Below, piece after piece: positions 658-17,827 of a stretch of DNA of 64,000 nt. A model generated the notes under the pieces. That model saw only the letters and a program-made list of their open reading frames with translations, was not told the DNA's origin and did no database searches. Source of the DNA: an uncultured Gammaproteobacteria bacterium (GTDB lineage: Bacteria > Patescibacteriota > Microgenomatia > Levybacterales > GWA1-39-11). The DNA is taken from assembly GCA_964651815.1 (NCBI GenBank), contig CAZYWG010000006.1:23259-87258 (forward strand). Direction: 5' to 3'. Position numbers and translations under genes: made by a program. The number at the start of each line of letters is the position of its first letter. Positions within the stretch are counted from its first letter, which is position 1.

Positions 658-2100
658 GTGAGATTTGTAAAAAAGGCTGTTAACTTATTTTTTGTTTGCT
701 TGATTTTCTTTATCCTCCTCGGATTTTTCACAAAACAGACTACGGCGGCTGATCCATGCGCTGATCCAAATATTCCATGCGCAGGCACCCAAACTTCTAA
801 TAATTCTGCTCCGGACACATCAAGCGATACGTTTGGTCAGTCTGATGTTACGCCGGATTTTACAACTAATCCTGACGGGAAAAATATATCAGATGGAACT
901 CAACAAGTAAAAGTCACATTCAATAATCTTACAGGGAAAGAAAATGCTATATGCACAGGTAATAACTCATGTTTTGTAGGACTAGGTTCTAGAGATAACT
1001 CCGGAACCGTTGGTTTTCCTACGCTTTTTTTTAATGATGATGAACTAATTACAGATTTTCAAGGCATCAAGGTTCAGGACCTCGGCATCACTCTACCAAT
1101 TTGCGGAAATGATAATGAGGTCCAAATTTGTAAAGATCCCGGTAATCATTATTTTATAGGTGGCCAAATGTATACTTTTAGCATTGGGATTAAAAAAGAC
1201 AATTTATATTACCCCCAAAAATTTGCATTCTTTTATGTTCCGCGCTCTTTCCCCACACCGCATATTGACCCTACTGACGATTTGACGGTAAAAAGTACAA
1301 TTAAAGTAACACTTGACCCTCCAAAAGATGATCATGGTAATAGCGCAATAAGAGGCGGTGGTGGGACAGGCGTTTGGCTCCGTAATAATTACAAAATAAG
1401 CATGATTGGGGGAGGAGCAATTAGCAAAGGTGGATGCGTTGGATGGTTTAACAAAGGTGACACCAACACAATCGGCGTAACATTTAGCAATCTGACTAGG
1501 GGTAGATATACACTTTCTATAAGTGAACAAACAAGCGATTCAGACAGTAATCCTTGGAAGAAAAAAGACAAAGACAGTAGTATAGTACAAGCACAGGACG
1601 ATCCCAACAATCACGATTGTGAAGGTGGCTTTCCTTATTGGCGTGCAGTATGTGAAGTAACGCCAGACCATCCGGGCGGCAAATGCAGTAAGCCGGTGAG
1701 AGACCCAAGCGGACAAGAATATAAAGATTTTCTAAATGACCTTGACGCACTCAACAGTATTGCACCCGGAATGAAATACCCTTGTGGAGGTGGTAAAAAC
1801 ACCGTAAACAACTCATGTCCGTCAGTTGATACTGCAATTGGGACAATTCAAGTAACACCTCAGGGGTTTATCACTGACATTTTCACATTTGTCTTAACAA
1901 TTGCAGGATTTGGTTCAATGATAATCATAATTTACGCTGGTTACACATTTATGGTATCACGAGGTGATAAAGAAAAAATTGCAGGAGCGCGCGAGACTCT
2001 TACGTCTGCAATTGTTGGATTGTTGTTTATAATATTATCAATTGTTATACTTGAAATTATTGGGGTAGATATTTTGAGAATCCCCGGAATCGGACGATAA
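658..2100 (+). CDS. Secreted Cys-rich extracellular domain fused to a C-terminal TrbC/VirB2-like pilin hairpin (adhesin-pilin fusion)
   Basis: GTG start. Signal peptide MRFVKKAVNLFFVCLIFFILLGFF..TTA/ADP. About 400 aa of Cys/Gly/Asn/Thr-rich region. C-terminus is two hydrophobic helices flanking SRGDKEKIAGARETLTSAIVGLLFI, the same motif as the five other pilin-like ORFs. A ttgact-18-tatcat promoter abuts the start. Confidence 0.55.
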   Translation: MRFVKKAVNLFFVCLIFFILLGFFTKQTTAADPCADPNIPCAGTQTSNNSAPDTSSDTFGQSDVTPDFTTNPDGKNISDGTQQVKVTFNNLTGKENAICTGNNSCFVGLGSRDNSGTVGFPTLFFNDDELITDFQGIKVQDLGITLPICGNDNEVQICKDPGNHYFIGGQMYTFSIGIKKDNLYYPQKFAFFYVPRSFPTPHIDPTDDLTVKSTIKVTLDPPKDDHGNSAIRGGGGTGVWLRNNYKISMIGGGAISKGGCVGWFNKGDTNTIGVTFSNLTRGRYTLSISEQTSDSDSNPWKKKDKDSSIVQAQDDPNNHDCEGGFPYWRAVCEVTPDHPGGKCSKPVRDPSGQEYKDFLNDLDALNSIAPGMKYPCGGGKNTVNNSCPSVDTAIGTIQVTPQGFITDIFTFVLTIAGFGSMIIIIYAGYTFMVSRGDKEKIAGARETLTSAIVGLLFIILSIVILEIIGVDILRIPGIGR

Positions 2101-2101
2101 A

Positions 2102-2428
2102 ATGAAATTATTAGCGCTTACTGTCAACAACATGAAAGGCACGCCTGAACAAATTGTTCCTCCTACAGGCATTCCAACCGGTATCTCATTAGGATCACTT
2201 GCGACAGGATTTATTGATGTTGTTATGGTCATAGGCGTTCTACTCTCTCTTGCCTATCTTGTCTATGGAGGAGTTTTCTGGATTCAATCTAAAGGTAATA
2301 AAGAAACGCTTGATAAAGCAAGAAGGATAATTCTTTACGCAATTATTGGGCTTATTGTCATGTCTGTTGCGCTTGTTGCAGTAAACCTTGTGACATCAGC
2401 AATTGGCGTAACAACTCTAATTCACTAA
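2102..2428 (+). CDS. TrbC/VirB2-like pilin family protein
   Basis: 108 aa with two hydrophobic helices separated by SKGNKETLDKARRIILYAIIGLIV. Immediately downstream of 658..2100. Confidence 0.55.
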   Translation: MKLLALTVNNMKGTPEQIVPPTGIPTGISLGSLATGFIDVVMVIGVLLSLAYLVYGGVFWIQSKGNKETLDKARRIILYAIIGLIVMSVALVAVNLVTSAIGVTTLIH

Positions 2429-2437
2429 ATTTCAAAA

Positions 2438-3916
2438 TTATTTTTTGTAAATTACCGCAGTTTTATCTTCAAAGATCTTCGCCCAATGGTCATATTCTAG
2501 TCGGCTTATAAATCTCGCTTTATAGTGGTTTGAATTTTGCAATAAAGATATATCAACTCCAAATACATCAATGCTAAGTGGTTTTGAATTTTTGTTTTGC
2601 CACAAAACATAATGGACATTATATTTTTTAAAAAATTTTTCGTAGCTGGCCGCGCCGCTTACTATACTCGCATAATCTTTGAATGCTGAATCGCTTTCTG
2701 AAGCGCTCGCGCGCCACTGCCAGGAAGGCATCCTTCCATCAATAAATACACGTTTTTCAGGGAGCTTCCACAATAAATATCCTCCCCAATTATAAACTGA
2801 AAAAATTTCTCCATTTATATTTTGCTTTTTTAAAAATGAAACAGCACTTTTTGGATAATATTTTTTTTCGGAAAGATCTGAATGTAAACCAATAGAATAT
2901 GTTTTACTCAAAAAAACGGCAAGTGCGTATAGCACAAAGATTAAAACGGCTTTTGAAAAACGCGCGAGCATGGCTTCATTTTTTTTAACTTCTTCCCGGA
3001 AAAATTCAAAAAAAGGCGGAACAATTATTAGTGTCGCAACTATAAAATACGGTAAGTGCCTAACGCTTGATATAACAAGTAAAAGAAGTGCCAGATAAAT
3101 AACGAGTGCTTGAAGCTTCAACTTTTTCCTATATCTAAAAATTAGAACAAAAGACAAGGCTAAAAGTATAAAAAAGGAAAGGTCAAAAAAGAAAACCCCC
3201 GGGAGCCATTCAATTATTTCCCACCTTAATGCTGAATCTGTAATTGATGAAAGTACTTCTCCCCAGAGTCGCGCGCCGTATGGATTTATAAATGTGGCAA
3301 GAATTGATCCCCCCAAAACTAAAAAATCATATCGGTCTACTCTTTTTTGGATAATTCTCAAAACAATAAATATTGATAGTAGATAGATTGCTACCGCAAA
3401 ACTTCCATGAAGATTGGCCCAAATTAAAATTAATACTGGAATTGTAATTTTCCATTTCTTCCACAGTTTTTCATTCAACAAAACTGTAAGCAAGACAGCG
3501 GCCAAAAACCAGGAAATAACCTGTATTCTTAATCCTGAAAATGAAAGAAGAATTGATGCAGCCAGAAGAAAAAATGAGGCATAATACACTTTAAATTGTT
3601 TTTTAAGTGAAAATGCAATTGCACCTATTGGGAAAGCCGCAAAGAAGAAAGAAAGAAGAAGCGGATGTATTTTGTAAAGAAAGTATATTACTACATCCGC
3701 AAGCCACTCATGATCTATGGCCGGAAAAGAAAGCATAGTATAGGAAAAAGTGTCTTTATATTGAAAACCGTGTTTTAAAGTGAGTTCTCCGAGTTTTAAG
3801 TGCCATCCAAAATCAGGATCTAGTGCAATTGTGTTGTGGATAAAAAAAACTATAAAAGAAGCAAAAACTAAACCCAAAAAAATTACTAAAGCTATCCTCC
3901 TACTATTCAAATTCAT
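2438..3916 (-). CDS. Polytopic membrane protein (about 10-12 TM) with a roughly 130-aa C-terminal soluble domain. GT-C glycosyltransferase-like architecture; function uncertain.
   Basis: Hydropathy pattern of the translation. N-terminal loop DPDFGWHLKLGE. Soluble C-terminal domain VYNWGGYLLWKLPEKRVFIDGRMPSWQW. Embedded among the pilin genes. Confidence 0.45.
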   Translation of the reverse strand: MNLNSRRIALVIFLGLVFASFIVFFIHNTIALDPDFGWHLKLGELTLKHGFQYKDTFSYTMLSFPAIDHEWLADVVIYFLYKIHPLLLSFFFAAFPIGAIAFSLKKQFKVYYASFFLLAASILLSFSGLRIQVISWFLAAVLLTVLLNEKLWKKWKITIPVLILIWANLHGSFAVAIYLLSIFIVLRIIQKRVDRYDFLVLGGSILATFINPYGARLWGEVLSSITDSALRWEIIEWLPGVFFFDLSFFILLALSFVLIFRYRKKLKLQALVIYLALLLLVISSVRHLPYFIVATLIIVPPFFEFFREEVKKNEAMLARFSKAVLIFVLYALAVFLSKTYSIGLHSDLSEKKYYPKSAVSFLKKQNINGEIFSVYNWGGYLLWKLPEKRVFIDGRMPSWQWRASASESDSAFKDYASIVSGAASYEKFFKKYNVHYVLWQNKNSKPLSIDVFGVDISLLQNSNHYKARFISRLEYDHWAKIFEDKTAVIYKK

Positions 3917-4017
3917 ATGAGCTTTATTCTACAAAAATTGTTTATGCTTTGTCTTGGTGTATTTTGCAAACTCGGAAGCACTTGACAAACTATTTCAAAC
4001 GTGCTGTAATTAAAAAT

Positions 4018-4431
4018 GTGAAAAGAATTTCAAAGTATTTAGTTCTCCTTCTCCCCCTCTTGGGTTTTATAAATGTTCCTATAGTATCAGCTAATGTTTT
4101 GTTCTCAGGTGTTAATACTGGAAGAATAAGCAATAGAATTATAAGTCCAGATCAAAGCATTGGGTCAATCGTTTCATTCGCTGTTGCATTTATTGTAGTC
4201 CTCTCGTTTCTTCTTGCACTTATTTTTATTGTTATCGGAGCAGTCCAATGGATAACATCAGGTGGTGACAAACAAAAAGTGGCGGACGCACGAAACCATA
4301 TAATTTCTGCAATTATTGGACTTATAATTGTCGCGCTCTCTTTTGTCATTGTTAACATTGTTATAACGGCGCTTGGCCTTGGATCTCTCACAAACCTCAC
4401 TATCCCAACTCTTTCGGAATTTGGCCAATAA
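4018..4431 (+). CDS. TrbC/VirB2-like pilin family protein. The GTG start at 4018 is preferred over the ORF-track start at 3949.
   Basis: Signal peptide VKRISKYLVLLLPLLGFINVPIVSA, then two TM helices around SGGDKQKVADARNHIISAIIGLII. C-terminal tail ...TLSEFGQ. TTGACA(3983)-17-TGTAAT(4006) lies just upstream of the GTG, so the longer 3949 start would sit upstream of the promoter. Confidence 0.5.
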   Translation: MKRISKYLVLLLPLLGFINVPIVSANVLFSGVNTGRISNRIISPDQSIGSIVSFAVAFIVVLSFLLALIFIVIGAVQWITSGGDKQKVADARNHIISAIIGLIIVALSFVIVNIVITALGLGSLTNLTIPTLSEFGQ

Positions 4432-4474
4432 ATCTTCCTTGCTTTTGTATCTTTCTTCTTTGTAAAATAGATTT

Positions 4475-4798
4475 ATGAATGATTTTATTCCAACCTCTGA
4501 TTGGTCAAGCTGTTTGAGCAATGGGGACGTTGCCACTCTATCTTGTATTCCTATAGTTCTTCAAAATATTATTAATTTTCTTGTTCTTTTTGCAGGTATT
4601 GCGTGTGTTTTTATAATAATTTTTGCAGGTTTTAAATTCGTAACGTCAGAAGGAGACCCTGAAAAAGTTGCACTTGCAAGAAAAACCGCGATGTATGGAA
4701 TTGGAGGATTTTTATTGGTACTTGCGTCTTTTGTTCTTGTAACAATGATTTCTAAGTTTACGGGAGTCACCCAAATCGCACCAAAAAACATCCCTTAA
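4475..4798 (+). CDS. TrbC/VirB2-like pilin family protein
   Basis: Two TM helices around SEGDPEKVALARKTAMYGIGGFLLV. No classical cleavable signal peptide. A -10-like taaaat sits about 9 nt upstream of the ATG. Confidence 0.5.
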   Translation: MNDFIPTSDWSSCLSNGDVATLSCIPIVLQNIINFLVLFAGIACVFIIIFAGFKFVTSEGDPEKVALARKTAMYGIGGFLLVLASFVLVTMISKFTGVTQIAPKNIP

Positions 4799-5499
4799 TT
4801 TATCCTCCTGAGTAAAAACTTGGCTATTATAAAAATTACAGTATTCACGGCAACTGGAATTAAAAAAAGCAAAACTACTAGTTTTAATGCTCCAAGAATT
4901 CGATGATCAAAAATAACATGCGATATAGGAGTAATTAAGTCAACTTTTAGAAATTGCGCCATGAGTATTGCAATAAATGCTAAAAACGCAACTAACAAAA
5001 CTAAAAAGACGCTCCCCTCCATATCTTTTTTACTTGAAAACATTGTGTTGGTGATAAAAAAAACAATATAGATAACGCCGCCTGTTTTTAAAACATCAAA
5101 AAATGATGAAAAAATAATATCCGGGTGCAAAAAATTAAGGTAATAAAACAAAACACTAAAAATTATAATCATTCCTACCACGACAGGAGCCGCTCCAATT
5201 AAAAAACTCCTCACTATATCTGTTTTCCTTATCTCAACGCTCCCCATCCGAAAGTTGCCATGCTCTATTTTTGGTGAGATCTCCAAACCATAGGTTTTGA
5301 CAAATAAAGCTTCCGCAACAAGCATATGTGCAAGCTCATGAAGTACTACTCCGGGAAGGAATAAAATAAAAATGGGGATTGCTGCTCTATCACTCTTTTT
5401 GAAAAGTCTATATGAGAAAATAAAAAGCGCAGAAAAAATAAATTTTGAAGTTAAAAAAAGTATTAAGAACTCTGCCGCAAAAAGCGCCCAAAATATCAT
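4795..5499 (-). CDS. Integral membrane zinc metalloprotease-like protein (HExxH)
   Basis: Multi-TM protein with HELAHMLVAE (HExxH) at the end of an early TM segment. Last gene of the minus-strand operon with 5855..8956. Converges on the pilin genes with a 4-nt overlap. Confidence 0.45.
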   Translation of the reverse strand: MIFWALFAAEFLILFLTSKFIFSALFIFSYRLFKKSDRAAIPIFILFLPGVVLHELAHMLVAEALFVKTYGLEISPKIEHGNFRMGSVEIRKTDIVRSFLIGAAPVVVGMIIIFSVLFYYLNFLHPDIIFSSFFDVLKTGGVIYIVFFITNTMFSSKKDMEGSVFLVLLVAFLAFIAILMAQFLKVDLITPISHVIFDHRILGALKLVVLLFLIPVAVNTVIFIIAKFLLRRIN

Positions 5500-5847
5500 T
5501 TAGTTATCAGCCTTAATTATCTCAGCAAGCTTATCCCGGGTAATATCTAGATCCATTGCTTGAATCTCCTCGGCTGTTACATGATCCATTTCAGACATAG
5601 TTAAATCTCTAATTCTATTGTAAAAATTTTTATCCAGTTTTTCGCGATTTTCCATTGCTTCTTCAAAAGCGATAGCCATATTTTTTTCAAGTTTAATTCC
5701 AAATATTATTTTGTATGCTGCCCAAAGCATTCTCCCTATGTTAAATTTACTGTCCTCGCTGAGATTGTCGTATGAATCGATCAAATCTTTTTTAAATTCT
5801 TCATCAAGTGGCAAAATCTTAACTATGTCTTTTGTTGTTCTTATCAT
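5500..5847 (-). CDS. Hypothetical protein (115 aa)
   Basis: ORF tightly packed between 5855..8956 and 4795..5499. No recognisable motif. Confidence 0.4.
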   Translation of the reverse strand: MIRTTKDIVKILPLDEEFKKDLIDSYDNLSEDSKFNIGRMLWAAYKIIFGIKLEKNMAIAFEEAMENREKLDKNFYNRIRDLTMSEMDHVTAEEIQAMDLDITRDKLAEIIKADN

Positions 5848-5854
5848 ATATTTA

Positions 5855-8800
5855 TTATAGCGCTTCTCCTTCGTCTTTAAATCTATCTATAACTGCTAAT
5901 AAAGCATTTTCCATTTCAGTTACCTTTACATCTCCTGTATCCATTTGATCTTTGAGAATATCTAAAAATGTTTCAAAATTCGGTGTTATGAGTGGGCTAA
6001 AGGGTGTTCCGAATAAAGGTTCATTCATGATCTCCATAAGCCTATCTGGCGTAATAATGGAGCTTACTTTTTTGAAATATTCTTCTCGATCATTTCTATC
6101 CTTATATTTAAGCATTACATCAAGAAATTCATAGTATCCTCTCGGAGGTTTTTCCGGCGGATCCCTAAAGGTAACATCGCGTTCCGAAGGAGTGTAAGTT
6201 GTATAATCCGGATCCGTAGGATTAATTTTTGTATTTTTTGTAAATTCGTCCTTTTTTTCAAAAATCTCGTATCTTCTATCCATTATTCTGTCGAAGTTCT
6301 TTAAAAGATCGCTAGTTACTTCGATTTGCTTTATCTCACCACTCAAATCTACCTTGCCAATTTCATCCTCTTGTATCTTTATCTTACCGTCAAATTCTTT
6401 TTCTAATCTCTCTCCGGCTTGCGCCCTTGAATCAAACTTGATCATTGCAAACTTTACCGCATCATTAATTTCAGAATCTGAAGGAACGGGAGGCGGTGGA
6501 GTCCCAAGCACTGGCGCGCGCTTATCAAGCATTGCCTTAATCTCCGCAAAAGACATAGTTCTAAGCTCTTCGTCAGTTAAAGCCCAAGTTGGCTCATCGG
6601 TTAATTTTTTGAAATTACTTTCTAGATCTGCTTTTCTTGGAGTAGAACTTTCAATCCTCCGCCCTCTTGCCTCAATCATGGCATTAATTACCTTGTTGCG
6701 GATATCATCTTTATCGTTCTGTTCTTTTTTCCAACCCGCCGGAAGAACATTAACTAGATCCATTATTTGATCTATATCATTTGTTCTAAGCTGTGCGTCT
6801 GATAATCCAATTGCCCGTAGTTCTCTGTATGCCTTGGTGTAGCCTTCGGTGGTTGTCTTTATTTCTGTGAATCTTGAACCTTCCTCTTTGAGGTTGACTC
6901 TTTGCTCATCAATTTTATCAAGTACCTCTTGAAGTCTGTTTTTCTCTGTTAAGACTTTGTTTACATCTTCCTGAATTTTAGCAGCTTTTCGGGCGACCTC
7001 GCTGTCAATATTTTCTCTTGCTAATCGAAGTCTTTCACTAAAATGTTCCGCTTCTTCATCAGTTCGCTTTATAACACGACCTGCGATTTCCTCGTACTGT
7101 TCTTCTTGCCATGTTTCTAACTCTAAGTTTCGTTGTTTAGTAGATTTGATTCTATCCCCATTTATAATTACCTCTGTGCCAATTCCATTTATTACGTCGT
7201 CTAATCCTGACATTGCCCCTTCAATACTCGTAAACCGACCGGCAAAATTTCTTACGACCTCTTTTGTAGCTCTGGTACGTATTTCCTCTATCGCTTTTCT
7301 CCCCTTATTGTATTCTTCGATTGTTGTCTTCCCAGCATCTATAGACCCTCTATCTCTTTTATATAGATCTCTATTTGTTTCAAAGTCTTTAACTCTTGCT
7401 TTATAAACAGTCGCTTCTTCTCCCTTACTCTTATCTCTTGCTTTTATTTTCTCTTCCCATCTTGATGCTCCCGGCAAAGATGTTTTCTTCTGCTCAATAA
7501 TATACTTTTTAAGCTGGTCCATTGCCACGTCTAATCTCGCTTTTTCAAATCTCTCTCTGTTGCCATGGTAATCAAGCGTTGCTAGACCTGTTAGAAAAGC
7601 GGGATTGTTAATCCATGAATTGGTGGCATCATCAAACACTTTACGCGTCCGCCCTAATGTGTCTCGTATTCCGTCTTCGTCTGCATTAAATTTTTCGGCT
7701 ATTTCTTCCATGTATCTAACTGCTGTTTTTTCCGGATAGCCTTTCCTCCCATCAGAATTGTAAAGAAATCCGATTGCAAGAGCATCTGCTCCGGCCCTAT
7801 CCGCGTGAATATCCTTCATGAATTCCATCCTTGCCTTAATTCTTGCGTCAATATCGTGTCTAAGTTGTTTTTGATTAGCTTCACTCGCACCGGGCGAAGG
7901 ATTAAGAACGTTAATTCCCGACATTAGTCTTACGTATTTAATGCGATCTGGGCTTGATTTAATATATTCAAGTGCTTTTTTTGATTCATGTGAATCAGGT
8001 TTTTTATAATCTCTTGAAACACCTTTTCCAACTGCAAGTGCAATTGCCTCAGCTGCTGTCGGAGCAAAACCTAACGTCGCGGCAGCTAAAGCAGGCGCCA
8101 TACCAAGAGTTGCAACTCCTAATCCTCCTGCTAACGCTGCTCCTGCTCCGACAAGTAGTACTCCTGTCTGAAGTCTATTTTGGTCATTAAATCTTGATAG
8201 ATATGGATAAGGTATGCTTAATGGACCAATTTTCTTTGAACCTATTGCCGGAACAATAGGAACATTGGGCAATCTGATTGATCCTAATATTGCTACCTCA
8301 CCTTTTCTACCATCATAAGAAGCAGTAGGTTCAGAAAGAAATTCCTGGGCTTTTCTAGCTGGATATCCAAGAGGTCCTTCTCTCATTCCAAGTGGCGTTT
8401 GATCTCTCGGCTCTGTGCCGATATCTTCAGTTGGCCCAGGATTAGTTTCCGGTATTAACCCTAGTGCAGACGAATCAACTTCCGTCTGACGCCCCATCAT
8501 AATGTCAGTAATCACGTAACCCCTAGGACTGTTTAGAAACTCGTCAACACTTTTCTCAAGGTCATTTATATCTGCGTCCTCAAATTCAACCTTAAGGGCA
8601 CCAGTATCTGTTTTTCCGGCAAGTATCCCGTAAACTTCACGGTCTAAATCATCCATTAATTCAGGGGCGTCTTTTTTTACTTTTGACAAGCGGTCCTTAA
8701 TGTGGTCTGTCATGAAGCGTCTATATTTATCCCGAGTGTCCCGGCTGAGATCCGTCCAAGGGTTCCGTTCTTTTCTTTGCCCACCACTTCTATCTCTCAT

Positions 8801-8956: not shown

Positions 8957-8971
8957 ATACTTAATTATTAC

Positions 8972-11738: not shown

Positions 11739-11746
11739 AATAAATT

Positions 11747-12388: not shown

Positions 12389-12403
12389 ACACGAAGCACT
12401 AGA

Positions 12404-12480
12404 TTCGAAACCCGAAACAAGTTTTAAAAATTAAAAAATTAGAATTTGTTTCGAATTTCGATATTCGAATTTCGAATTTT
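12404..12480. repeat. Imperfect inverted repeat plus tandem tcgaattt units between the two VirB4 ORFs
   Basis: ttcgaaacccgaaacaa (12404-12420) pairs with ttgtttcgaatttcgat (12446-12462) at 14 of 17 positions, around a 25-nt A/T loop. Followed by tcgaattt at 12451, 12465 and 12473. Confidence 0.5.
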
Positions 12481-12481
12481 T

Positions 12482-14782
12482 ATGTTGGGCTTTGGGAAAA
12501 AAACAAAACAAATTCAAAATGAAGCACCTCAACAGGTATTGAGTGCCGCGGGCGAACCTACTGTGGCGCCACAAGTCCAACCAACAATTGTTGTAAAGGC
12601 CGGGACAAAAGGCAAAAAAGCAGCTGGACAAAGCTCGCATCCGCAAAACGTGCAAAGTAAAGGGTATGCTGCTCTTTCTCAAGGGGCTGTTTCTGTAGTT
12701 GACATTATTTCCCCGTCGTCAGTTGAAGTTGATTTTAAAAATATTCGCGTTGGAAATAAATTTTTCAGGACTTTTTTTGTTGTTGATTATCCACGGCAAG
12801 TATCTCCCAACTGGCTTTCAATACTCATCGACTACAAAGAGACTATGAACATTTCAATGTTCTCATACCCCGTTGAGAGCAAAGACGTATTAACAAATTT
12901 AAGAAGAAAAATTTCTGAGATGGAAGCAACGCTTCAATCAGACGCTGAGCAAGGACTTGAACCGGACCCTAAGACTAGCGCCGGGCTGGAAGATGCAATC
13001 GCTTTGCGAGAAGAACTGGCACGTGGGCTTGAGCGATTTTTCCAATTCGGTTTATATATCACTTTGGCCGCTGAAACTGTTGAAGAACTTGACTCAAAAA
13101 CCAAAGAGCTAACTTCTCTTCTTGCGTCAAACCTTTTACTTATTAAACCCGCAACTCTCCAAATGGAAGACGGATTCAAAACTACGTTGCCAGGCGGCGT
13201 TGACAAACTTTTTATAACTCGCAACATGGATACAACTTCTCTTGCTTCAACTTTTCCTTTCACGTCTTATGAAATATCACACCCTAATGGAATCCTGTAT
13301 GGAGTCAACACAATAAATAATTCACTTGCGATTGTGGACCGTTTTTCTTTTGAAAATGCAAATGAGGTAGTCTTTGGAAAGTCAGGTGCCGGAAAATCTT
13401 TCCTGGTAAAACTTGAAATACTTCGCCAAATGATGTTTGACGCGGAGATTTTGATTATCGACCCAGAAGATGAATATAGAGCTCTTTGCCACGCGCTTGA
13501 CGGCGAATACATTAATTTTTCAAAGGACTCTGACATTAAAATTAACCCATTTGCGCTAATTTCTGAAGACATGACAGACGCGCAACTTGGAATAAAAATC
13601 TTATCACTTCACGGGCTTCTCAAAACCATGCTTGGGGAGATGACGCCAACTCAAGAAGCAATTCTCGATAGGTCTCTTGTATTATGTTATAAGCAAAAAG
13701 GGATAACTCCGGACCCCGCAACTTACAGACAAGAACCACCAATTCTTGAAGATCTTTACAAAACTCTTCTTAACATGGAAGAACCCGAAGCAAAAGATCT
13801 TTCATTCAGGCTCGAAAAATATGTGAAAGGTGGTTTCTCAGGTCTTTTTAATCAACAAACAAATTATGATGTTAAAAACCAACTAACTGTTTTTTCAATA
13901 AAACAACTTGAAGACGCGCTCCGTCCAATTGCTATGCATGTAATTTTGGATTTTATCTGGAACCGCGTCAGGACAAAGCTTAAAAAAAGAATACTGGTAG
14001 TTGATGAGGCGTGGTATCTAATGCAACACCCTGATTCTGCAAGTTTTTTGCAAGGAATTGCCAAACGGGCAAGAAAATATTTCCTTGGAGTAACTACTCT
14101 TACTCAAGATATTGAAGACTTTCTCAATAACGATTATGGAAAATCCATTTTATCTAATTCCTCAGTTCAAATTCTTTTAAAACAGAATTCTTCAGAAGTT
14201 GAAACCCTGGCAAAAGCGCTATTTTTATCGGAAGGAGAAAAACAATTTCTAGTGACGGCACAAGTTGGAGAAGGGCTTTTGTTTGCCGGGCAAAATCACA
14301 TAACCGCTCAGTTTGTGGCATCAAATTCAGAATATGAACTAATTACTTCAAAGCCACAAGATATATTAAGAAATGAACAGGACGCGGAAAATATTCAGGC
14401 GGCACAATTGGCTTCCGCGCAAGCTAATCCGCCTCAACCCACAGAACAAACACAAGCGCCGCCACCTCCACCAGAACAACCAATGCAACCTCAACAGCCT
14501 ACGGCAATACCAGTGGTACCTACCCAAAGCGTGCCGACACAAGATCCTGAAAACATCACAGTTGTTCCACAGCAAATCCAGACACCAGTACAACCTGCTG
14601 TAACACAGCAACCAATCACACAAATACCTACAGTGAGTGTACCCCAGCCAGGTACCATCCCGGCAGCACCAATTGCTTCTTTCAATCAAGCTCTCCCTAC
14701 AGCGCCCCCTGTAGCGCCACAACCCCCGATTGTTCCTACGGAAAACGTTCAGCCCCCTACAAATCCCACTGGGAGCGCATAA
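12482..14782 (+). CDS. virB4: VirB4/TrbE/CagE-family type IV secretion ATPase (ATG at 12482 preferred; ORF-track TTG at 12446)
   Basis: N-terminal region IISPSSVEVDFKNIRVGNKFFRTFFVVDYPRQVSPNWLSILIDY..MNISMFSYP. Walker A FGKSGAGKSF (nt 13375-13398). Walker B ILVVDEAWYLMQ. About 140-aa Pro/Gln-rich C-terminal extension. Confidence 0.8.
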   Translation: MLGFGKKTKQIQNEAPQQVLSAAGEPTVAPQVQPTIVVKAGTKGKKAAGQSSHPQNVQSKGYAALSQGAVSVVDIISPSSVEVDFKNIRVGNKFFRTFFVVDYPRQVSPNWLSILIDYKETMNISMFSYPVESKDVLTNLRRKISEMEATLQSDAEQGLEPDPKTSAGLEDAIALREELARGLERFFQFGLYITLAAETVEELDSKTKELTSLLASNLLLIKPATLQMEDGFKTTLPGGVDKLFITRNMDTTSLASTFPFTSYEISHPNGILYGVNTINNSLAIVDRFSFENANEVVFGKSGAGKSFLVKLEILRQMMFDAEILIIDPEDEYRALCHALDGEYINFSKDSDIKINPFALISEDMTDAQLGIKILSLHGLLKTMLGEMTPTQEAILDRSLVLCYKQKGITPDPATYRQEPPILEDLYKTLLNMEEPEAKDLSFRLEKYVKGGFSGLFNQQTNYDVKNQLTVFSIKQLEDALRPIAMHVILDFIWNRVRTKLKKRILVVDEAWYLMQHPDSASFLQGIAKRARKYFLGVTTLTQDIEDFLNNDYGKSILSNSSVQILLKQNSSEVETLAKALFLSEGEKQFLVTAQVGEGLLFAGQNHITAQFVASNSEYELITSKPQDILRNEQDAENIQAAQLASAQANPPQPTEQTQAPPPPPEQPMQPQQPTAIPVVPTQSVPTQDPENITVVPQQIQTPVQPAVTQQPITQIPTVSVPQPGTIPAAPIASFNQALPTAPPVAPQPPIVPTENVQPPTNPTGSA

Positions 14783-14789
14783 ATAAAAT

Positions 14790-17312
14790 ATGGACAACAC
14801 TGCTCAAGAGGGTAATTCAAAAAAATCCTCAGAATCAACTAAGGGCGTAATTATTTCAGGACTTGTATATGGACCGTCTAATGCGGGATCAAATGAAAAC
14901 GTTGCGCTCGGCGGAATAACAATAAGAATACAAGGTGCTTCGCGCGCGACAGATTCCCAAGACGTAACTTCTGGCGAGACAGGCGAATTTTCCTCAAGAC
15001 TACTTTCCCCGGGAAAATATAAAGTTACGCCTATTGATTCAAAAGCAATATATTTCCGTCCCCCACTGACAATTCCAGTAAACAATGATACCCCCCTCGA
15101 AATATACATGACGCCTGCTGGAACACCTAACCGCAGACGAGGCAACCATCACTCTTTTATGCCAATTATTAAAAACAACATTTACGGATTTCTTGTTGAG
15201 AGGCAAAAAAAACCAATCGCAAATATCGACGTGAGTGTTAAAAGCGTAACGCTCGATCCGGCAAAAAGTAATAAGGGCCTAATTGAAAAACTCGCAAGTT
15301 TTGTTTCAAGAAAGAATGCTACAGAAAACGAAGAAGGTAAAAATAAAGAGCCCGAACCAATTTCTATAATACTTAAAACAAACGCGCTAGGATCATTTGC
15401 TGTGAGGCAACGTTTGCCGAATGGGGCTTACATAGTTAAGTGTATAGATCCTTCCAAAAAATATACTTTTAGATCCAGATTTATGGTACTTAAAGGGTAC
15501 TACCTTCCACCTCTTTGGTTTACGGGTTATACAACATCAGACCTTGATGAATTAAAAAAGAAACACCAGGAAAGAAAAGATAAAGCACCTGAAGAGGAGA
15601 AAGACAAGGAGGCAGAAGAATCGACAACATCAAAAAAAGGTGGTACAGAAAGTGAAGATGCCAAAAATAAGGAGGGGCTAGAAGAAGGCGATGGAAAAAA
15701 AGCAGCTGATGAAGCTGCAAGAATAATCCATGAAAATCAGGCACCTTCTAAGCCACCCAAAACCGGAGGGAGTTTGAAGCCTGATGAAAGCCCAACTGGC
15801 GCTACTCCCGAAACAAAACGGGAAACCATAAGTCGAAGTGCTACTGGAACAGCGACTCTTGAGCGACCCCAAACGGAACTTCAACCAAATTTGAGGGATT
15901 ATCCTCAACCAACTTCCTTTCCTGCCATTGAAACAATAGTTCGGCCGCCACAATTTGATGAACCATCGATCCCCCAACAATCAAGCGAACAACAAAGAAC
16001 ACAGAGCGCTCAAAATGCACAAAGCGCTCAAGGAAATAGACAAAGACGATCTTCTGTTAGATCGCCGAGAATTCCAAACCCTGCAAAAAATGCAGCAAGC
16101 CAAGCGGCTCGAGGTGGAGAGAAAGAAGTTTTAAATGCTATAAATACTGCTACCGCGCCTGTTCAATCTGTCTTAAAAAAATATTTAATAGGGGCAGCAA
16201 TTATCATAATTCTTCTTATCATAATCATTCAATTTTTCGGCCCAGAGTCTCCCGCCTCCCCTTTCAGCAGTGGTGAGACGAGCGCAAATCCGGGCAATCC
16301 GGGCAATCCGACAAATCCAAACCCAGGCAACCCAGGGGTGAATACAGGCGGAGGGCTTGATTATGCAATCCTTATAAATGACCCGACCATTTTACCTGAC
16401 AATATAAAACAAACTATTGCATCAAATTGGCCAAACGCCCTGCTTCAAAATTTAGATAATATAGTATCCACTGCAAAGTCTCACAACTGGAACCCATCCT
16501 TCCTTTTGTCCCTGTGGATCGAAGAATCTGGAGGGCAAGCTGGCACGAGCAATGCGGATGGCAACCCAAATGGATACACAGATGCTCTTGGATGTGACCC
16601 TCAGCACCCCACAAGCAACATAAATTCATCTCTTACTTGTTTTTTTAATCAGTATGGATCTTATACAAAAAGTTTTGCCGACTTTATGTGTAATTACAGC
16701 GAAAGTAAAGATGCCCCTTGTACTTTTTCTACCAATCCGAATTTTCCTGGATCAATTAAATCCGTTTATGCAACGCTTGTTCCAAATGGTCCAGGGGCGG
16801 AAATAAATATTACTCCAACAACAACCCCCGGCGGCGGATCAGTTACTGCAACCTGCCCCATACGGGGGGGTATAATAACTTGTGGAAGCAAGTTCAATAC
16901 TGTTAATAATTGTGGACATTGCAACCCAAACACAGACTATGCATCCGATATGGATCAATGTACTTATAACGGAATAAATTACGCGGAGGACGTTGGGGCT
17001 TCCGCAGGAACAAACGTAATACTGCCGAGTCTTAATGGCGAGTCTATAATCTGGAACTTTTACAACGAGCAGCAGTCGGGTATTGGATCAACCATTATGT
17101 ATAAAGGGAATGACTCACATGATATTACTTATGTAATTGAATTTCATCACGTTGCAGGGGGAAGCAGTGTGAAACGCGGTCTTTCAGGAGATATTGGAGC
17201 AAAAACATGCACTGGGGACTCCCGCTGTAATCATGTTCATATTGAATTTTACAAACTGCCTGCAACAGGAGTACAAGATTATGTAGATGCGTCTAAAACT
17301 TTTTGCCAATGA
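14790..17312 (+). CDS. Membrane-anchored peptidoglycan hydrolase: two prealbumin-like N-terminal domains, a charged linker, one TM, an SLT-like lytic transglycosylase region and a C-terminal M23 (LytM) peptidase domain
   Basis: TM helix KKYLIGAAIIIILLIIIIQFF. SLT-like LLSLWIEESGGQAG...YTDALGCDPQ. M23 signature YVIEFHHVAGGSSVKRGLSGDIGAKTCTGDSRCNHVHIEF (HxH...E). NPGNPGNP tandem linker at about 16260-16330. Follows virB4 by 8 nt. Confidence 0.65.
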   Translation: MDNTAQEGNSKKSSESTKGVIISGLVYGPSNAGSNENVALGGITIRIQGASRATDSQDVTSGETGEFSSRLLSPGKYKVTPIDSKAIYFRPPLTIPVNNDTPLEIYMTPAGTPNRRRGNHHSFMPIIKNNIYGFLVERQKKPIANIDVSVKSVTLDPAKSNKGLIEKLASFVSRKNATENEEGKNKEPEPISIILKTNALGSFAVRQRLPNGAYIVKCIDPSKKYTFRSRFMVLKGYYLPPLWFTGYTTSDLDELKKKHQERKDKAPEEEKDKEAEESTTSKKGGTESEDAKNKEGLEEGDGKKAADEAARIIHENQAPSKPPKTGGSLKPDESPTGATPETKRETISRSATGTATLERPQTELQPNLRDYPQPTSFPAIETIVRPPQFDEPSIPQQSSEQQRTQSAQNAQSAQGNRQRRSSVRSPRIPNPAKNAASQAARGGEKEVLNAINTATAPVQSVLKKYLIGAAIIIILLIIIIQFFGPESPASPFSSGETSANPGNPGNPTNPNPGNPGVNTGGGLDYAILINDPTILPDNIKQTIASNWPNALLQNLDNIVSTAKSHNWNPSFLLSLWIEESGGQAGTSNADGNPNGYTDALGCDPQHPTSNINSSLTCFFNQYGSYTKSFADFMCNYSESKDAPCTFSTNPNFPGSIKSVYATLVPNGPGAEINITPTTTPGGGSVTATCPIRGGIITCGSKFNTVNNCGHCNPNTDYASDMDQCTYNGINYAEDVGASAGTNVILPSLNGESIIWNFYNEQQSGIGSTIMYKGNDSHDITYVIEFHHVAGGSSVKRGLSGDIGAKTCTGDSRCNHVHIEFYKLPATGVQDYVDASKTFCQ

Positions 17313-17827
17313 AAATAAATTTTAAAACTGAATATTTATTTATAATTCTCATAATTATTCTCATTCCTGTTTTTGTTTGGCTTATTGCTGCAAGGTTTTC
17401 ATCAAACACTTCAAATAATACTTCTACTGATAAGGCATTAACATCATCAACGCCAACTCCTGTCTATGTCGTTCCTACCGGCCTATCCAAAAATAAAGTA
17501 TTAGCGGTAACGCATACGCTCCCAATTGATGATACAGGTATTACATATCAACCTATTCAACCCATTGAATTTTCTTTTAATAATTCCGTAGATGCGGCAG
17601 GAATTAAGTATTCTGTTAATCCTAAAATAGATGTAGTTGTAAAAAATGGATCTTATGCAAACAAAGTGTTAATTTATCCTGCGGTTAAATGGAATGAAGG
17701 AATAACAACTATTACAATTCTCCCGGGTAGTAGTGCTCTTGATGGCACCAAGCTTTATATTCCTTTTACTTACGAACTAAATACAGCGCAACCAACTGTG
17801 CCACCTCATAGCCCTGGAGCTTATTAA
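17303..17827 (+). CDS. Small N-terminally membrane-anchored hypothetical protein (174 aa)
   Basis: ATGA overlap with the preceding hydrolase stop. TM helix LFIILIIILIPVFVWLIAA followed by an S/T-rich linker. Confidence 0.4.
   Translation: MPMKINFKTEYLFIILIIILIPVFVWLIAARFSSNTSNNTSTDKALTSSTPTPVYVVPTGLSKNKVLAVTHTLPIDDTGITYQPIQPIEFSFNNSVDAAGIKYSVNPKIDVVVKNGSYANKVLIYPAVKWNEGITTITILPGSSALDGTKLYIPFTYELNTAQPTVPPHSPGAY

What the first reader, a model, noticed from the sequence alone, without database searches (positions are those of the whole stretch)
658..17827. Origin-proximal T4SS-like pilus/secretion locus with several unrecognisable large components
Seventeen kb directly abutting dnaN/dnaA encode a VirB4/TrbE-family ATPase (Walker A FGKSGAGKSF, Walker B DEAW), a PrgI/VirB3-like two-TM protein, an SLT+M23 cell-wall hydrolase and four VirB2-like pilin paralogs. 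The locus also holds a polytopic membrane protein, a membrane HExxH protease and three large proteins with no recognisable family (1033 aa, 448 aa, 213 aa). No VirD4 coupling protein, relaxase or VirB11 is present, so this is unlikely to be a conjugative element. It looks instead like a chromosomal, lineage-specific secretion, pilus or DNA-uptake apparatus whose accessory proteins are uncharacterised. If any part of this window is a previously undescribed system, this locus is the strongest candidate.
Basis: partly seen in the sequence, partly recalled or inferred. Interest (0 to 1): 0.85.

Follow-up and report, generated by a model that had tools for sequence, protein, structure and literature searches.

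The report
Levybacteria copy of the Patescibacteria T4SS
This is the chromosomal, replication-origin-adjacent type IV secretion/pilus system already described (2023-2025) for the ultrasmall epibiotic Patescibacteria; here it is in a Levybacteria genome that also carries a fast-evolving three-gene insert of unknown function.

Summary
Bases 658-17827 encode a VirB4 ATPase, a PrgI/VirB3-like protein, four VirB2-like pilin domains and a membrane-anchored wall hydrolase. A structure model shows the hydrolase to be lysozyme-like plus M23/LytM. The locus abuts dnaN/dnaA. The organism is a Candidatus Levybacteria (Patescibacteria/CPR).

The system is not new. Wang et al. 2023 (Cell) and Quinonero-Coronel et al. 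2025 (Microb Genom) describe this relaxase-free, MPF-FATA-derived T4SS, with pilin arrays and a TrsD homologue, lying near dnaA in Microgenomatia.

In 82 related loci the core is invariant: pilins, PrgI fused to a beta-sandwich, TrsD-like, VirB4, hydrolase. dnaN follows in 61 of 61 loci with enough flank.

The 1033-, 448- and 115-aa proteins form an optional three-gene cassette at a variable site, and they evolve fastest in the locus (23-34% identity against 81% for VirB4). The 1033-aa protein models confidently as all-alpha with a conserved glycine-rich hydrophobic stretch and matches no known fold. The polytopic and HExxH proteins are sporadic passengers, not VirB6.

No relaxase, coupling protein, VirB11, integrase or att site was found. 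Verdict: new member of a known kind, with a modest lead in the cassette.

The parts
3..623 (+). 3' part of a regulator gene (C-terminal OmpR/PhoB-type winged helix, Trans_reg_C), cut by the window start. Full length is about 440 aa in relatives. It sits upstream of the pilin operon.
   Evidence: Trans_reg_C 80.1 bits. The frame is open from base 3. Present upstream of the pilin array in 40 of 52 related loci with at least 9 kb of upstream flank.
658..2100 (+). 'Big pilin': signal peptide, a Cys-rich ectodomain of about 380 aa with no known family, and a C-terminal two-helix VirB2-like pilin domain. Candidate adhesin or tip pilin (inferred).
   Evidence: PF18895 22.5 bits at residues 401-466. 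NF045849 pilin-like conjugal transfer protein at E 1e-4. Of 17 relatives, 17 hit PF18895 and 2 hit TrbC/VirB2. Hydrophobic segments at 7-25, 408-426 and 452-470. Only 34-39% identical to orthologues.
2102..2428 (+). VirB2-like pilin paralogue (108 aa).
   Evidence: PF18895 24.3 bits, below the cut-off. Two TM helices. Aligns with the other pilins.
2438..3916 (-). Polytopic membrane protein of 492 aa (about 9-11 hydrophobic helices) with an invariant D33-x-D35 in the first loop. It is a sporadic insert inside the pilin array and is not VirB6. Function unknown; a GT-C-like pilin-modifying glycosyltransferase is a guess only.
   Evidence: No Pfam, NCBIfam, PHROG or PDB sequence hit. The family has more than 1141 members in Microgenomates and none carries Pfam annotation; one 889-aa member also carries GT87. 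Present in only 5 of 52 related loci. Invariant columns.
3949..4431 (+). VirB2-like pilin paralogue. The ORF is 160 aa; a public gene call for the same sequence starts at 3982 (149 aa).
   Evidence: PF18895 40.7 bits. The 149-aa call comes from an identical Logan contig.
4475..4798 (+). VirB2-like pilin paralogue (107 aa).
   Evidence: PF18895 35.6 bits.
4795..5499 (-). Membrane HExxH protein of 234 aa with 6 hydrophobic helices, resembling a site-2 protease. Sporadic accessory gene; it may process pilins (inferred).
   Evidence: HELAH at residues 54-58. Invariant H54, E55, H58, N151, D159, E161. The family profile's best PDB hit is the M. jannaschii site-2 protease 3b4r, E 0.0085, over the HExxH helix. 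Present in 7 of 52 related loci.
5500..5847 (-). Small acidic helical protein (115 aa, family pI 4.4-5.2), always directly downstream of the 1033-aa gene's homologues. Candidate chaperone or partner (inferred).
   Evidence: Family alignment A11. pI values. Conserved pairing in L010, L023, L049, L071, L083-L086. No meaningful PDB sequence hit.
5855..8956 (-). 1033-aa protein of a real but unnamed family. It has a variable N-terminus, a conserved, almost uncharged Gly/Ala-rich hydrophobic stretch (residues about 262-310), and a confidently modelled all-alpha domain of about 700 aa. It matches no known fold.
9007..10353 (+). 448-aa protein transcribed divergently from the 1033-aa gene. It has no signal peptide and a conserved hydrophobic anchor at the very C-terminus. 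It is the third member of the cassette.
   Evidence: Homologues in the same divergent position in L010, L083, L085, L086. The alignment shows a C-terminal hydrophobic tail in all members and no conserved P-loop. No family hit.
10512..11738 (+). VirB3/PrgI-like two-TM protein fused through a long Pro/Gln-rich linker to a C-terminal CarboxypepD_reg-type beta-sandwich. Topology predicts that this domain is cytoplasmic.
   Evidence: PrgI 27.9 bits (residues 5-82) and CarboxypepD_reg 26.4 bits (residues 304-361). TM helices at 26-44 and 50-68. Both halves are conserved in 79 of 82 related loci.
11747..12388 (+). TrsD-like protein (213 aa), the detached N-terminal domain of VirB4.
   Evidence: NF041427 TrsD covers profile positions 10-200 of 201 (E 1e-4). 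NF045975 VirB4_plasma covers positions 132-278, while the ATPase gene covers 293-893 of the same profile. PF26593 TraC-like hits the orthologues. Present in 80 of 82 loci and 74-86% identical.
12482..14782 (+). VirB4-family ATPase (766 aa from the ATG) with a disordered Pro/Gln-rich tail of about 130 aa. The ATG at 12482, not the TTG at 12446, is the conserved start.
   Evidence: Alignment A1 has invariant M13 and K19, and the consensus starts MLGxGKK. 77-81% identical across Levybacteria, which is higher than DnaA.
14790..17312 (+). VirB1-type wall hydrolase of 840 aa. It has a cytoplasmic N-half with CarboxypepD_reg-like beta-sandwich(es) and a charged linker, one TM helix (466-484), then an extracellular lysozyme-like (GH73-like) domain and an M23/LytM domain.
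   Evidence: CarboxypepD_reg 25.1 bits. TM helix. Model and fold matches. Invariant H, D, H and HxH in the M23-like domain. In relatives the same middle domain is followed by a canonical PF01551 M23 domain, or the M23-like domain is a separate gene of about 200 aa.
17303..17827 (+). Membrane-anchored Ig-like protein (174 aa; N-terminal TM plus a Big_5-type domain), the last gene before dnaN.
   Evidence: TM at 12-30. 7 of 15 family members hit PF13205 Big_5, best E 2e-7.
17829..20396 (-). dnaN (17829-18929) and dnaA (19062-20396), with DnaA-box-like 9-mers in both flanking spacers. Together they mark the replication origin region.
   Evidence: Pfam hits. DnaA-box-like sites at 18962, 19004, 19038, 20444 (perfect match) and 20492. 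dnaN follows VirB4 in 61 of 61 related loci with at least 6 kb of downstream flank; the median gap is 3.25 kb.

Best explanation
The locus is the Levybacteria (class Microgenomatia) version of the Patescibacteria type IV secretion system. This is a vertically inherited chromosomal machine derived from the conjugation apparatus of monoderm bacteria (MPF-FATA, CD1110/CTn2-like VirB4). It has lost relaxase-dependent DNA transfer.

Shown here:
- A split VirB4: a TrsD-like N-domain protein plus the ATPase.
- A VirB3/PrgI-like membrane anchor.
- A membrane-anchored lysozyme-like + M23 wall hydrolase.
- Four divergent VirB2-like pilins, one carrying a 380-aa ectodomain.
- A conserved upstream winged-helix regulator.
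- All of these are fixed next to dnaN/dnaA throughout the group.

Inferred from the literature on related systems:
- VirB4, held at the membrane by PrgI and TrsD, drives extraction and polymerisation of the pilins into a pilus or conduit.
- The pilus passes through a wall gap opened by the hydrolase.
- The structure contacts the host cell of this presumably epibiotic bacterium and moves macromolecules across the interface. Cargo and direction are unknown.
- The big pilin is the likely adhesin or tip.

The 115/1033/448-aa trio is an optional, fast-evolving cassette at a variable site between the pilin array and prgI. It most plausibly encodes host-interaction cargo or an accessory membrane module: a glycine-rich membrane-inserting helical protein, a tail-anchored partner and a small acidic chaperone-like protein. 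The 492-aa polytopic protein and the HExxH protein are sporadic inserts, perhaps pilin-modifying or pilin-processing enzymes.
For: Identity:
- VirB4 passes the curated NCBIfam cut-off for the CD1110 family (408.7 against 325 bits) and Pfam cut-offs.
- PrgI passes its cut-off.
- There are four PF18895 pilin domains.
- The TrsD-like protein and the ATPase cover complementary parts of one VirB4 profile.
- The hydrolase fold is confirmed.
- The best 120 VirB4 homologues are Levybacteria/Patescibacteria at 68-92% identity.

Fixed chromosomal position:
- The same gene order appears in L001 and L002.
- In 82 related loci, PrgI is present in 79, TrsD-like in 80 and VirB4 in 82. dnaN follows in 61 of 61 and dnaA in 60 of 61 loci with enough flank.
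- DnaA boxes flank dnaA.
- VirB4 and the TrsD-like protein are more conserved than DnaA and DnaN.
- No tRNA, no flanking repeats and no other large P-loop ATPase in 64 kb.

Published match:
- PMC12102498 describes this clade, its gene set, its pilin arrays and its proximity to dnaA.
- PMC10633639 shows that the T4SS genes and pilins of a saccharibacterium are essential for epibiotic growth, and that no relaxase or coupling protein is recognised there.
- PMC12857230 reviews the system.
- A 2026 preprint reports tubular structures at a parasite-host interface that may be T4SS pili.

Cassette:
- The conserved trio sits at the same site in L010, L023, L049, L071, L085 and L086.
- A non-homologous alternative cassette (F11 with F19/F42) occupies the same site.
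- The trio has the lowest identities in the locus.
- Both small partner families are acidic.
- The Gly/Ala-rich hydrophobic stretch is conserved.
Against: - No VirB6-like polytopic channel subunit and no VirB8-like protein was found in the locus, so the membrane channel is unexplained. The published survey also finds VirB6 scarce in Microgenomatia.
- No coupling protein lies in the 64 kb. One may exist elsewhere in the genome, as is common in Patescibacteria, so DNA or protein substrate recruitment cannot be judged.
- Two of the four pilin domains, the TrsD hit and both hydrolase domains are below curated sequence cut-offs. They rest on structure, alignment and synteny.
- The Levybacteria lifestyle (epibiosis) and any secretion or pilus formation are inferred. 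Nothing here shows expression or function.
- The cassette reading is circumstantial. The trio lacks signal peptides and could equally be a cytoplasmic-face membrane scaffold. On one 10-kb contig (L083) no T4SS gene was seen beside it.
- Gene maps of related loci come from a greedy longest-ORF heuristic and BLAST single-linkage families, so the counts are approximate.
Confidence: 0.8

Rival explanations
1. A DNA-uptake (competence-type) T4SS. Like H. pylori ComB or the archaeal Ced system, a relaxase-free VirB4 machine with VirB2-like pilins would import DNA (or RNA) from the environment or the host to feed a cell that cannot make nucleotides.
For: - No relaxase or coupling protein lies in the window.
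- VirB4 gives weak generic hits to CedB and CedD (34.9 and 23.7 bits).
- In the ABY1 class the T4SS lies beside comF/recG/radA.
- A 2026 preprint links VirB4 to macromolecule transfer in an RNA-feeding parasite.
Against: - In Ca. S. epibionticum, competence depends on T4P and ComEC. A comEC deletion abolishes transformation without loss of viability, while the T4SS stays essential. Hence the essential role there is not natural transformation.
- No CedA- or ComB6-like polytopic channel and no com genes lie in or beside this locus.
- The CedB and CedD scores are far below their cut-offs (700 and 600 bits).
Confidence: 0.12
2. An ordinary integrative conjugative element, or a decayed remnant of one, that happens to sit near the origin.
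For: - VirB4 belongs to a family typed on the clostridial conjugative transposon CTn2.
- PrgI, TrsD and a TM-anchored two-domain hydrolase are the standard Gram-positive conjugation set.
Against: - No relaxase, T4CP, integrase, tRNA or att-like repeats were found.
- The locus sits at the same chromosomal site next to dnaN in 61 of 61 related genomes.
- VirB4 is more conserved than DnaA.
- GC content is like the rest of the window.
- Relaxases are rare in the phylum, found in 103 genomes.
Confidence: 0.03
3. A pilus-only adhesion or contact organelle. The VirB4 machine would merely assemble variable VirB2-like pili, with the big pilin as adhesin, for attachment to hosts and would translocate nothing.
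For: - There are four divergent pilins at 27-34% identity, including one with a large, fast-evolving ectodomain.
- No VirB6, VirB8 or T4CP channel or recruitment parts were detected.
- Pilin arrays are proposed to adapt to different hosts.
Against: - Patescibacteria already use type IV pili for adhesion.
- The extreme conservation of VirB4 and TrsD, and the essentiality of the system in Saccharibacteria, suggest more than adhesion.
- In all studied T4SSs the pilus machinery and the translocation channel share parts (established knowledge).
Confidence: 0.1

Closest known systems
T4SS of Candidatus Southlakia epibionticum ML1 (SEML1_0006-0019) and the 'Patescibacteria clade' T4SS of Quinonero-Coronel et al. 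2025
   Same: - Chromosomal and origin-proximal.
- A VirB4 related to MPF-FATA.
- An adjacent TrsD homologue and a PrgI/VirB3 homologue.
- An array of sequence-divergent VirB2-like pilins.
- Peptidase and lysozyme genes directly downstream of virB4.
- No relaxase.

   Different: - No VirB6 homologue is detectable here, whereas one is present and essential in S. epibionticum.
- There are four pilin domains rather than six, and one is fused to a 380-aa ectodomain.
- PrgI carries a C-terminal beta-sandwich domain.
- The lysozyme-like and M23 domains are fused in a single 840-aa protein with a long cytoplasmic N-half.
- A three-gene cassette of 115, 1033 and 448 aa is present and is not discussed in those papers.
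Gram-positive conjugation systems of class MPF-FATA (CTn2 CD1110 type; pCF10 Prg/Pcf; pGO1 Trs)
   Same: - The VirB4 family (NF045971 above its cut-off).
- PrgI.
- TrsD (pGO1 subclass).
- A TM-anchored multi-domain wall hydrolase like PrgK or TraG; the PrgK LytM domain is among the fold matches.

   Different: - Those systems have a relaxase, a coupling protein, a VirB6-like PrgH/CD415 and VirB8-like proteins, and they lack VirB2 pilins.
- They are mobile, whereas this locus is fixed beside dnaN.
Bacteriophage phi29 tail protein gp13 (lysozyme-like + M23 wall-degrading enzyme)
   Same: The C-half of the 840-aa protein has the same two-domain order, a lysozyme-like domain followed by M23 (Foldseek 3csq, E 7e-4).
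   Different: - Sequence identity is only about 11-12%.
- The protein here is membrane-anchored with a cytoplasmic N-half.
- Its M23 His ligand is not in the canonical HxxxD spacing.
Relaxase-free import T4SSs (H. pylori ComB; archaeal Ced)
   Same: A VirB4-type ATPase and small two-helix pilins, without a relaxase or coupling protein nearby.
   Different: - No ComB6-, ComB8-, ComB9-, ComB10- or CedA-type parts are present.
- Matches to the CedB and CedD models are far below their cut-offs.

Membership tests
Patescibacteria-clade T4SS (MPF-FATA-derived) | VirB4-family ATPase of the monoderm (CD1110/MPF-FATA) type with intact Walker A and B | tested here: met
   NF045971 408.7 bits against a cut-off of 325. 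P-loop_TraG 116 bits. The motifs are read directly in the sequence.
Patescibacteria-clade T4SS (MPF-FATA-derived) | VirB4 falls inside the monophyletic Patescibacteria clade in a phylogeny | not tested
   No tree was built. The only proxy is that the best 120 homologues, where named, are all Levybacteria or Patescibacteria, at 68-92% identity.
Patescibacteria-clade T4SS (MPF-FATA-derived) | TrsD homologue (VirB4 N-domain-like) encoded next to virB4 | tested here: met
   The 213-aa protein matches TrsD profile positions 10-200 of 201 at E 1e-4 and 22 bits, below the curated 200-bit cut-off. It also matches VirB4_plasma positions 132-278, complementary to the ATPase gene's 293-893. PF26593 hits the orthologues. 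Present in 80 of 82 loci.
Patescibacteria-clade T4SS (MPF-FATA-derived) | VirB3/PrgI homologue | tested here: met
   PF12666 27.9 bits against a cut-off of 27. Two TM helices.
Patescibacteria-clade T4SS (MPF-FATA-derived) | Array of divergent VirB2-like pilin genes near virB4 | tested here: met
   Four PF18895 domains, two of them above the cut-off, with 27-34% mutual identity. Related loci most often have four pilin-domain genes, in 30 of 52.
Patescibacteria-clade T4SS (MPF-FATA-derived) | No relaxase or coupling protein with the locus, and a chromosomal position near dnaA/dnaN | tested here: met
   No such Pfam or NCBIfam hits among the locus genes or the ten largest other ORFs. The only other ORFs with conserved P-loop ATPase matches are DnaA, RuvB and an ABC ATPase. 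dnaN abuts the locus. The rest of the genome was not available.
Patescibacteria-clade T4SS (MPF-FATA-derived) | Required for host-dependent (epibiotic) growth | not testable with these tools
   Known only for Ca. S. epibionticum. Levybacteria are uncultivated.
Conjugative element (ICE or plasmid MPF-FATA system) | Relaxase, type IV coupling protein, and integrase with att sites or other mobility signs | tested here: not met
   None detected. The locus position is fixed in 61 of 61 relatives.
Conjugative element (ICE or plasmid MPF-FATA system) | VirB6-like polytopic channel protein (PrgH/CD415) and VirB8-like protein | tested here: not met
   No Pfam or NCBIfam hit. The only polytopic proteins (492 aa and 234 aa) occur in 5 and 7 of 52 related loci, so they are not core. 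The 174-aa bitopic protein is Big_5-like, not NTF2-like, by sequence. Its structure was not modelled.
VirB1-type T4SS wall hydrolase (PrgK/TraG-like) | TM anchor followed by a lysozyme-superfamily glycosidase domain and a peptidase domain, encoded next to virB4 | tested here: met
   TM at 466-484. The model has pLDDT 80.5. Fold matches include GH73 glucosaminidases, many M23/LytM structures including PrgK LytM, and phi29 gp13. At sequence level it is only sub-threshold.
Peptidase M23 | Zinc and catalytic motifs HxxxD and HxH | tested here: inconclusive
   HxH (H135, H137), D54 and H107 are invariant. The first His (H30) lies 24 residues before the Asp rather than 4. Pfam PF01551 gives E 0.031 and 14.9 bits against a cut-off of 28.7. 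Activity is unknown.
Site-2 protease (peptidase M50) | HExxH in a TM helix plus a second TM motif (NxxPxxxLDG) supplying the third zinc ligand | tested here: inconclusive
   HELAH is invariant, and the profile hits S2P structure 3b4r at E 0.0085 over that helix only. The second conserved motif is N151-T-M-x-S-S-x-x-D159-x-E161, not LDG. There is no Pfam hit.

The most novel reading that the evidence does not exclude
The variable site between the pilin array and prgI may hold the so far unidentified cargo of the Patescibacteria T4SS.

On this reading:
- The 1033-aa all-alpha protein, with its conserved glycine-rich hydrophobic hairpin, is exported through the pilus machine together with its tail-anchored 448-aa partner.
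- The 115-aa acidic protein chaperones the 1033-aa protein.
- Once exported, the 1033-aa protein inserts into the host cell membrane as a translocon or pore that gives the epibiont access to host cytoplasm.
- The alternative, non-homologous cassette in other Levybacteria (an acidic protein of about 115 aa plus a tail-anchored protein of about 650-700 aa) would be an interchangeable version of the same function.
Probability: 0.12. Interest if true: 0.75.

Novelty: new member of a known kind. Interest (0 to 1): 0.35.

Why it matters
The Patescibacteria T4SS is one of the few machines known to be essential for the epibiotic life of this very large, mostly uncultivated bacterial group. What it transports is still unknown.

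This locus adds nothing to the existence of the system, but it sharpens three points for Levybacteria:
- The machine can be reduced to pilins, PrgI, TrsD, VirB4 and a hydrolase, with no detectable VirB6 or VirB8.
- Its ATPase module is under stronger constraint than DnaA.
- There is a defined hot spot where fast-evolving, non-homologous cassettes are swapped in.

If those cassettes are cargo, they give experimentalists concrete candidates for the missing substrates.

Tried and rejected
- **Exact look-up of VirB4.** The 766-aa VirB4 was not on record. The public gene call uses the TTG start (778 aa).
- **Promoter and terminator scan of 1-20000.** Counts equal chance: 53 against 49.4 and 14 against 17.2. 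No operon claim is made.
- **Repeat search around the cassette (4300-10700).** Only short chance-level repeats and no att-like pair.
- **tRNA and Rfam scans of the window.** Nothing found.
- **PHROGs scan of eight locus proteins.** Nothing useful, so a phage origin of the cassette was dropped.
- **Single-sequence PDB searches.** No hits for the hydrolase C-half or the 492-aa protein. The profile of the lysozyme-like domain gave only a chance HORMA hit.
- **The 492-aa protein.** BLAST against the window's own PMT_2 glycosyltransferase showed no similarity. The GT-C idea stays a guess based on a DxD loop and one GT87-fused relative. VirB6 identity was rejected because the gene is sporadic and its family is far larger than the T4SS loci.
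- **Homology between the two alternative cassettes.** hhalign probabilities are 1-33% for the large proteins and 4.9% for the small ones, which is not supported. F19 and F42 are homologous to each other at 97%. The first attempt at this analysis timed out.
- **Walker-A-like strings.** GSIDAGKT in the 1033-aa protein and ADIFGGKT in the 448-aa protein are not conserved, or lie in a long helix, so they were rejected as P-loops.
- **Profile of the 115-aa protein against PDB.** Only Rop and designed helical proteins were hit, with no meaning.
- **Left flank.** An attempt to recover sequence left of the window returned only a short contig of the same region.

Full report
**What is in the sequence**

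The region 658-17827 holds fifteen ORFs.

- The 12482-14782 product is a VirB4-family ATPase. Pfam gives P-loop_TraG 116 bits, AAA_10 52.5 bits and CagE_TrbE_VirB 21.5 bits against a cut-off of 21. NCBIfam NF045971 'VirB4-like conjugal transfer ATPase, CD1110 family' gives 408.7 bits against a cut-off of 325. Walker A (GKSGAGKS) and Walker B (VVDEAW) are visible in the translation.
- The 408-aa protein starts with a PrgI/VirB3 domain (27.9 bits against a cut-off of 27) and ends with a CarboxypepD_reg-type beta-sandwich.
- Four products carry the PF18895 T4SS_pilin domain, at 40.7, 35.6, 24.3 and 22.5 bits against a cut-off of 26.6. They align with each other at 27-34% identity around a shared helix - S-x-G-D-x-E-K - A-R - helix pattern.
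- One pilin domain is the C-terminus of a 480-aa secreted protein. All 17 relatives of that protein hit PF18895 and two also hit TrbC/VirB2.
- dnaN and dnaA follow directly. DnaA-box-like 9-mers cluster in the two spacers around dnaA.

**Organism and conservation**

The best 120 VirB4 homologues are 68-92% identical and, where named, come from Candidatus Levybacteria or Patescibacteria. Two long contigs show the same gene order.

A scan of one genome per species returned 80 more loci. I called ORFs in them, searched them with the window's proteins and clustered them. These maps rest on a greedy longest-ORF heuristic, so the counts are approximate.

- The invariant core is: regulator, big pilin, pilins, PrgI with beta-sandwich, a protein of about 210 aa, VirB4, a hydrolase-type protein plus one to three small bitopic proteins, dnaN, dnaA.
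- PrgI is present in 79 of 82 loci, the 210-aa protein in 80 and VirB4 in 82.
- dnaN follows in 61 of 61 and dnaA in 60 of 61 loci with at least 6 kb of downstream flank.
- Pilins are present in 47 of 52 loci with at least 9 kb of upstream flank, most often as four genes.
- The regulator gene is cut by the window start; the frame is open from base 3 to 623.

Between the window and its relatives, VirB4 (77-81%) and the 213-aa protein (74-86%) are more conserved than DnaA (70-73%) and DnaN (57-66%).

**Already published**

A full-text search found Quinonero-Coronel et al. 2025 (PMC12102498). That paper describes:

- a monophyletic Patescibacteria VirB4 clade related to the monoderm MPF-FATA class;
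- a TrsD homologue as the commonest neighbour of virB4;
- PrgI/VirB3 homologues;
- arrays of 2-11 divergent VirB2-like pilins, especially in Microgenomatia and Saccharimonadia;
- rare relaxases;
- proximity to dnaA and dnaN in Paceibacteria and Microgenomatia;
- scarcity of VirB6 and VirB8 homologues in Microgenomatia.

Wang et al. 2023 (PMC10633639) showed by Tn-seq that the T4SS genes and pilins of Ca. Southlakia epibionticum (SEML1_0006-0019) are essential for growth on its host. They found no recognisable relaxase or coupling protein. A 2025 review presents these systems as a known newcomer to the T4SS superfamily (PMC12857230). A 2026 preprint reports tubular structures, possibly T4SS pili, at a parasite-host interface.

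**The 213-aa 'unknown'**

This protein matches the NCBIfam TrsD model over positions 10-200 of 201. It also matches positions 132-278 of a full-length mycoplasma VirB4 model, whose positions 293-893 are matched by the ATPase gene. Orthologues hit PF26593 TraC-like. It is the detached N-terminal domain of VirB4. The scores are low (22-24 bits), but the complementary coverage and the invariant adjacency make the assignment firm.

**The 840-aa protein**

Pfam and NCBIfam gave no SLT or M23 hit at normal thresholds. Domain alignments from relatives gave only weak hits: Glucosaminidase at E 0.013, Peptidase_M23 at E 0.031 and PDB M23 entry 5kqb at E 0.16.

A homologue search showed that some relatives carry a canonical PF01551 M23 domain after the same middle domain. 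An AlphaFold model of residues 500-840 reached pLDDT 80.5 and shows a helical domain followed by a beta domain. Foldseek against the PDB matched three groups:

- the beta domain to many M23/LytM structures, including Csd1/Csd2, lysostaphin, EnvC and the LytM domain of the pCF10 T4SS hydrolase PrgK;
- the helical domain to GH73 glucosaminidases (SagB, AtlE);
- both domains together to phi29 gp13.

The protein has no signal peptide and one TM helix at 466-484. The N-half, with its beta-sandwich and charged linker, should therefore be cytoplasmic and the hydrolase domains outside. In the M23-like domain, D54, H107 and H135-x-H137 are invariant, but the first His lies 24 residues before the Asp rather than 4. 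Activity is therefore uncertain. In other Levybacteria the M23-like domain is a separate gene of about 200 aa.

The last gene (174 aa) is a membrane-anchored Big_5 Ig-like protein; 7 of 15 relatives hit PF13205.

**The remaining unknowns are accessory**

In about twenty related loci the pilin array abuts prgI directly. Elsewhere this junction holds variable inserts in either orientation.

1. An acidic protein of about 115 aa plus a protein of about 650-700 aa with a hydrophobic segment about 40-50 residues from its C-terminus in about half the members examined. These are families F11 with F19/F42; F11 is in 17 of 52 loci. F19 and F42 are homologous to each other at 97% hhalign probability.
2. 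The window's trio of 115, about 1000 and 300-530 aa. It is seen in L010, L023, L049 and L071, and in L085 and L086 at the same site. It also occurs on two short contigs without visible context.
3. The HExxH protein, in 7 of 52 loci.

The 492-aa polytopic protein sits inside the pilin array in 5 of 52 loci. The two large-protein cassettes are not detectably homologous. The trio has the lowest identities in the locus: 23-26% for the 1033-aa protein and 29-34% for the 448-aa protein, against 81% for VirB4.

**The 1033-aa family**

An exhaustive HMMER search found 124 representative clusters, mostly 900-1050 aa and 23-30% identical, aligned from about residue 260 to the end. None of seven members has a Pfam domain.

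With a 61-sequence alignment, AlphaFold gave mean pLDDT 79.2, mostly above 90 from residue 320 onward. The model is all-alpha with very long helices. The N-terminus and residues 211-320 are of low confidence.

The 448-aa family shares a hydrophobic tail at the very C-terminus and has no signal peptide. The 115-aa family is acidic and helical.

These features fit two readings: a chaperoned, membrane-inserting cargo or translocon, or a membrane scaffold on the cytoplasmic face. The data do not decide between them.

**The two membrane proteins**

The HExxH family has invariant H54, E55, H58, N151, D159 and E161. Its profile's best PDB match is the M. jannaschii site-2 protease, E 0.0085, over the HExxH helix only.

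The 492-aa family has more than 1141 members across Microgenomates, without annotation. It has an invariant D-x-D in the first loop and no PDB sequence match. Neither protein is a VirB6 candidate, because neither is core to the locus.

**Not a mobile element**

- No tRNA or Rfam feature.
- No flanking repeats.
- Composition like the rest of the window.
- No relaxase, coupling protein or VirB11 among the locus genes or the largest other ORFs.
- Walker A motifs elsewhere in the window only in DnaA, RuvB and an ABC ATPase.
- The locus position is fixed in all relatives.

**Mechanism**

Shown here: the part list, its conservation, its fixed origin-adjacent position, the hydrolase fold and the split VirB4.

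Inferred from studied T4SSs and from the Saccharibacteria genetics:

- VirB4, docked by PrgI and TrsD, powers pilin extraction and pilus or conduit assembly through a wall breach made by the hydrolase.
- The structure serves contact with, and macromolecule exchange with, a host cell.
- The big pilin is a likely adhesin.

Unexplained: which protein forms the membrane channel in the absence of VirB6 and VirB8, what the three predicted cytoplasmic beta-sandwich domains and the Pro/Gln-rich VirB4 tail do, and what the cargo is.

**Verdict**

This is a new member of a known kind. The variable cassette site is a modest, testable lead towards the unknown cargo.

Noticed in passing
L085:8023-8451, 13653-14057, 15525-15893; also L042, L057, L063 (not in the window): In 15 of 52 related Levybacteria T4SS loci, one to five copies of a basic ORF of about 124 aa (PF05635 23S_rRNA_IVP, weak PF22296 bAvd) lie between the regulator, the pilin genes and prgI. 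bAvd is the accessory protein of diversity-generating retroelements, so a link to pilin diversification is conceivable.
   Followed up: no
window 11747-14782 versus 17829-20396: VirB4 (77-81% identity) and the TrsD-like protein (74-86%) are more conserved between Levybacteria than DnaA (70-73%) and DnaN (57-66%).
   Followed up: partly
window 18962-19046 and 20444-20500: DnaA-box-like 9-mers cluster in the spacers around dnaA: three in the 134-bp dnaN-dnaA spacer and two upstream of dnaA, one of them a perfect TTATCCACA. They mark the likely oriC.
   Followed up: partly
left of window base 1 (seen in L027, L059, L066, L070, L079, L086): Most related loci have a large ORF of about 700-1200 aa with no known family, transcribed divergently from the regulator gene. 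In this genome it would lie just outside the window.
   Followed up: no
window 10512-11738 and 14790-17312: The PrgI-like protein and the hydrolase both carry CarboxypepD_reg-type beta-sandwich domains that are predicted to face the cytoplasm. VirB4 has a Pro/Gln-rich tail of about 130 aa. The PrgI fusion is conserved in 79 of 82 loci, and I did not find it mentioned in the 2025 survey.
   Followed up: partly
window 20675-23068: A 797-aa fusion of GT4 and GT2 glycosyltransferase domains lies directly on the other side of dnaA. It is conserved in the closest relatives (family F25).
   Followed up: no
window 52731-54071: A 446-aa ORF on the + strand has no Pfam hit.
   Followed up: no
window 12446 versus 12482; 3949 versus 3982: Start-codon discrepancies. 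The public record calls VirB4 from the TTG at 12446 (778 aa), but conservation supports the ATG at 12482. The third pilin is called from 3982 (149 aa) on an identical public contig.
   Followed up: partly
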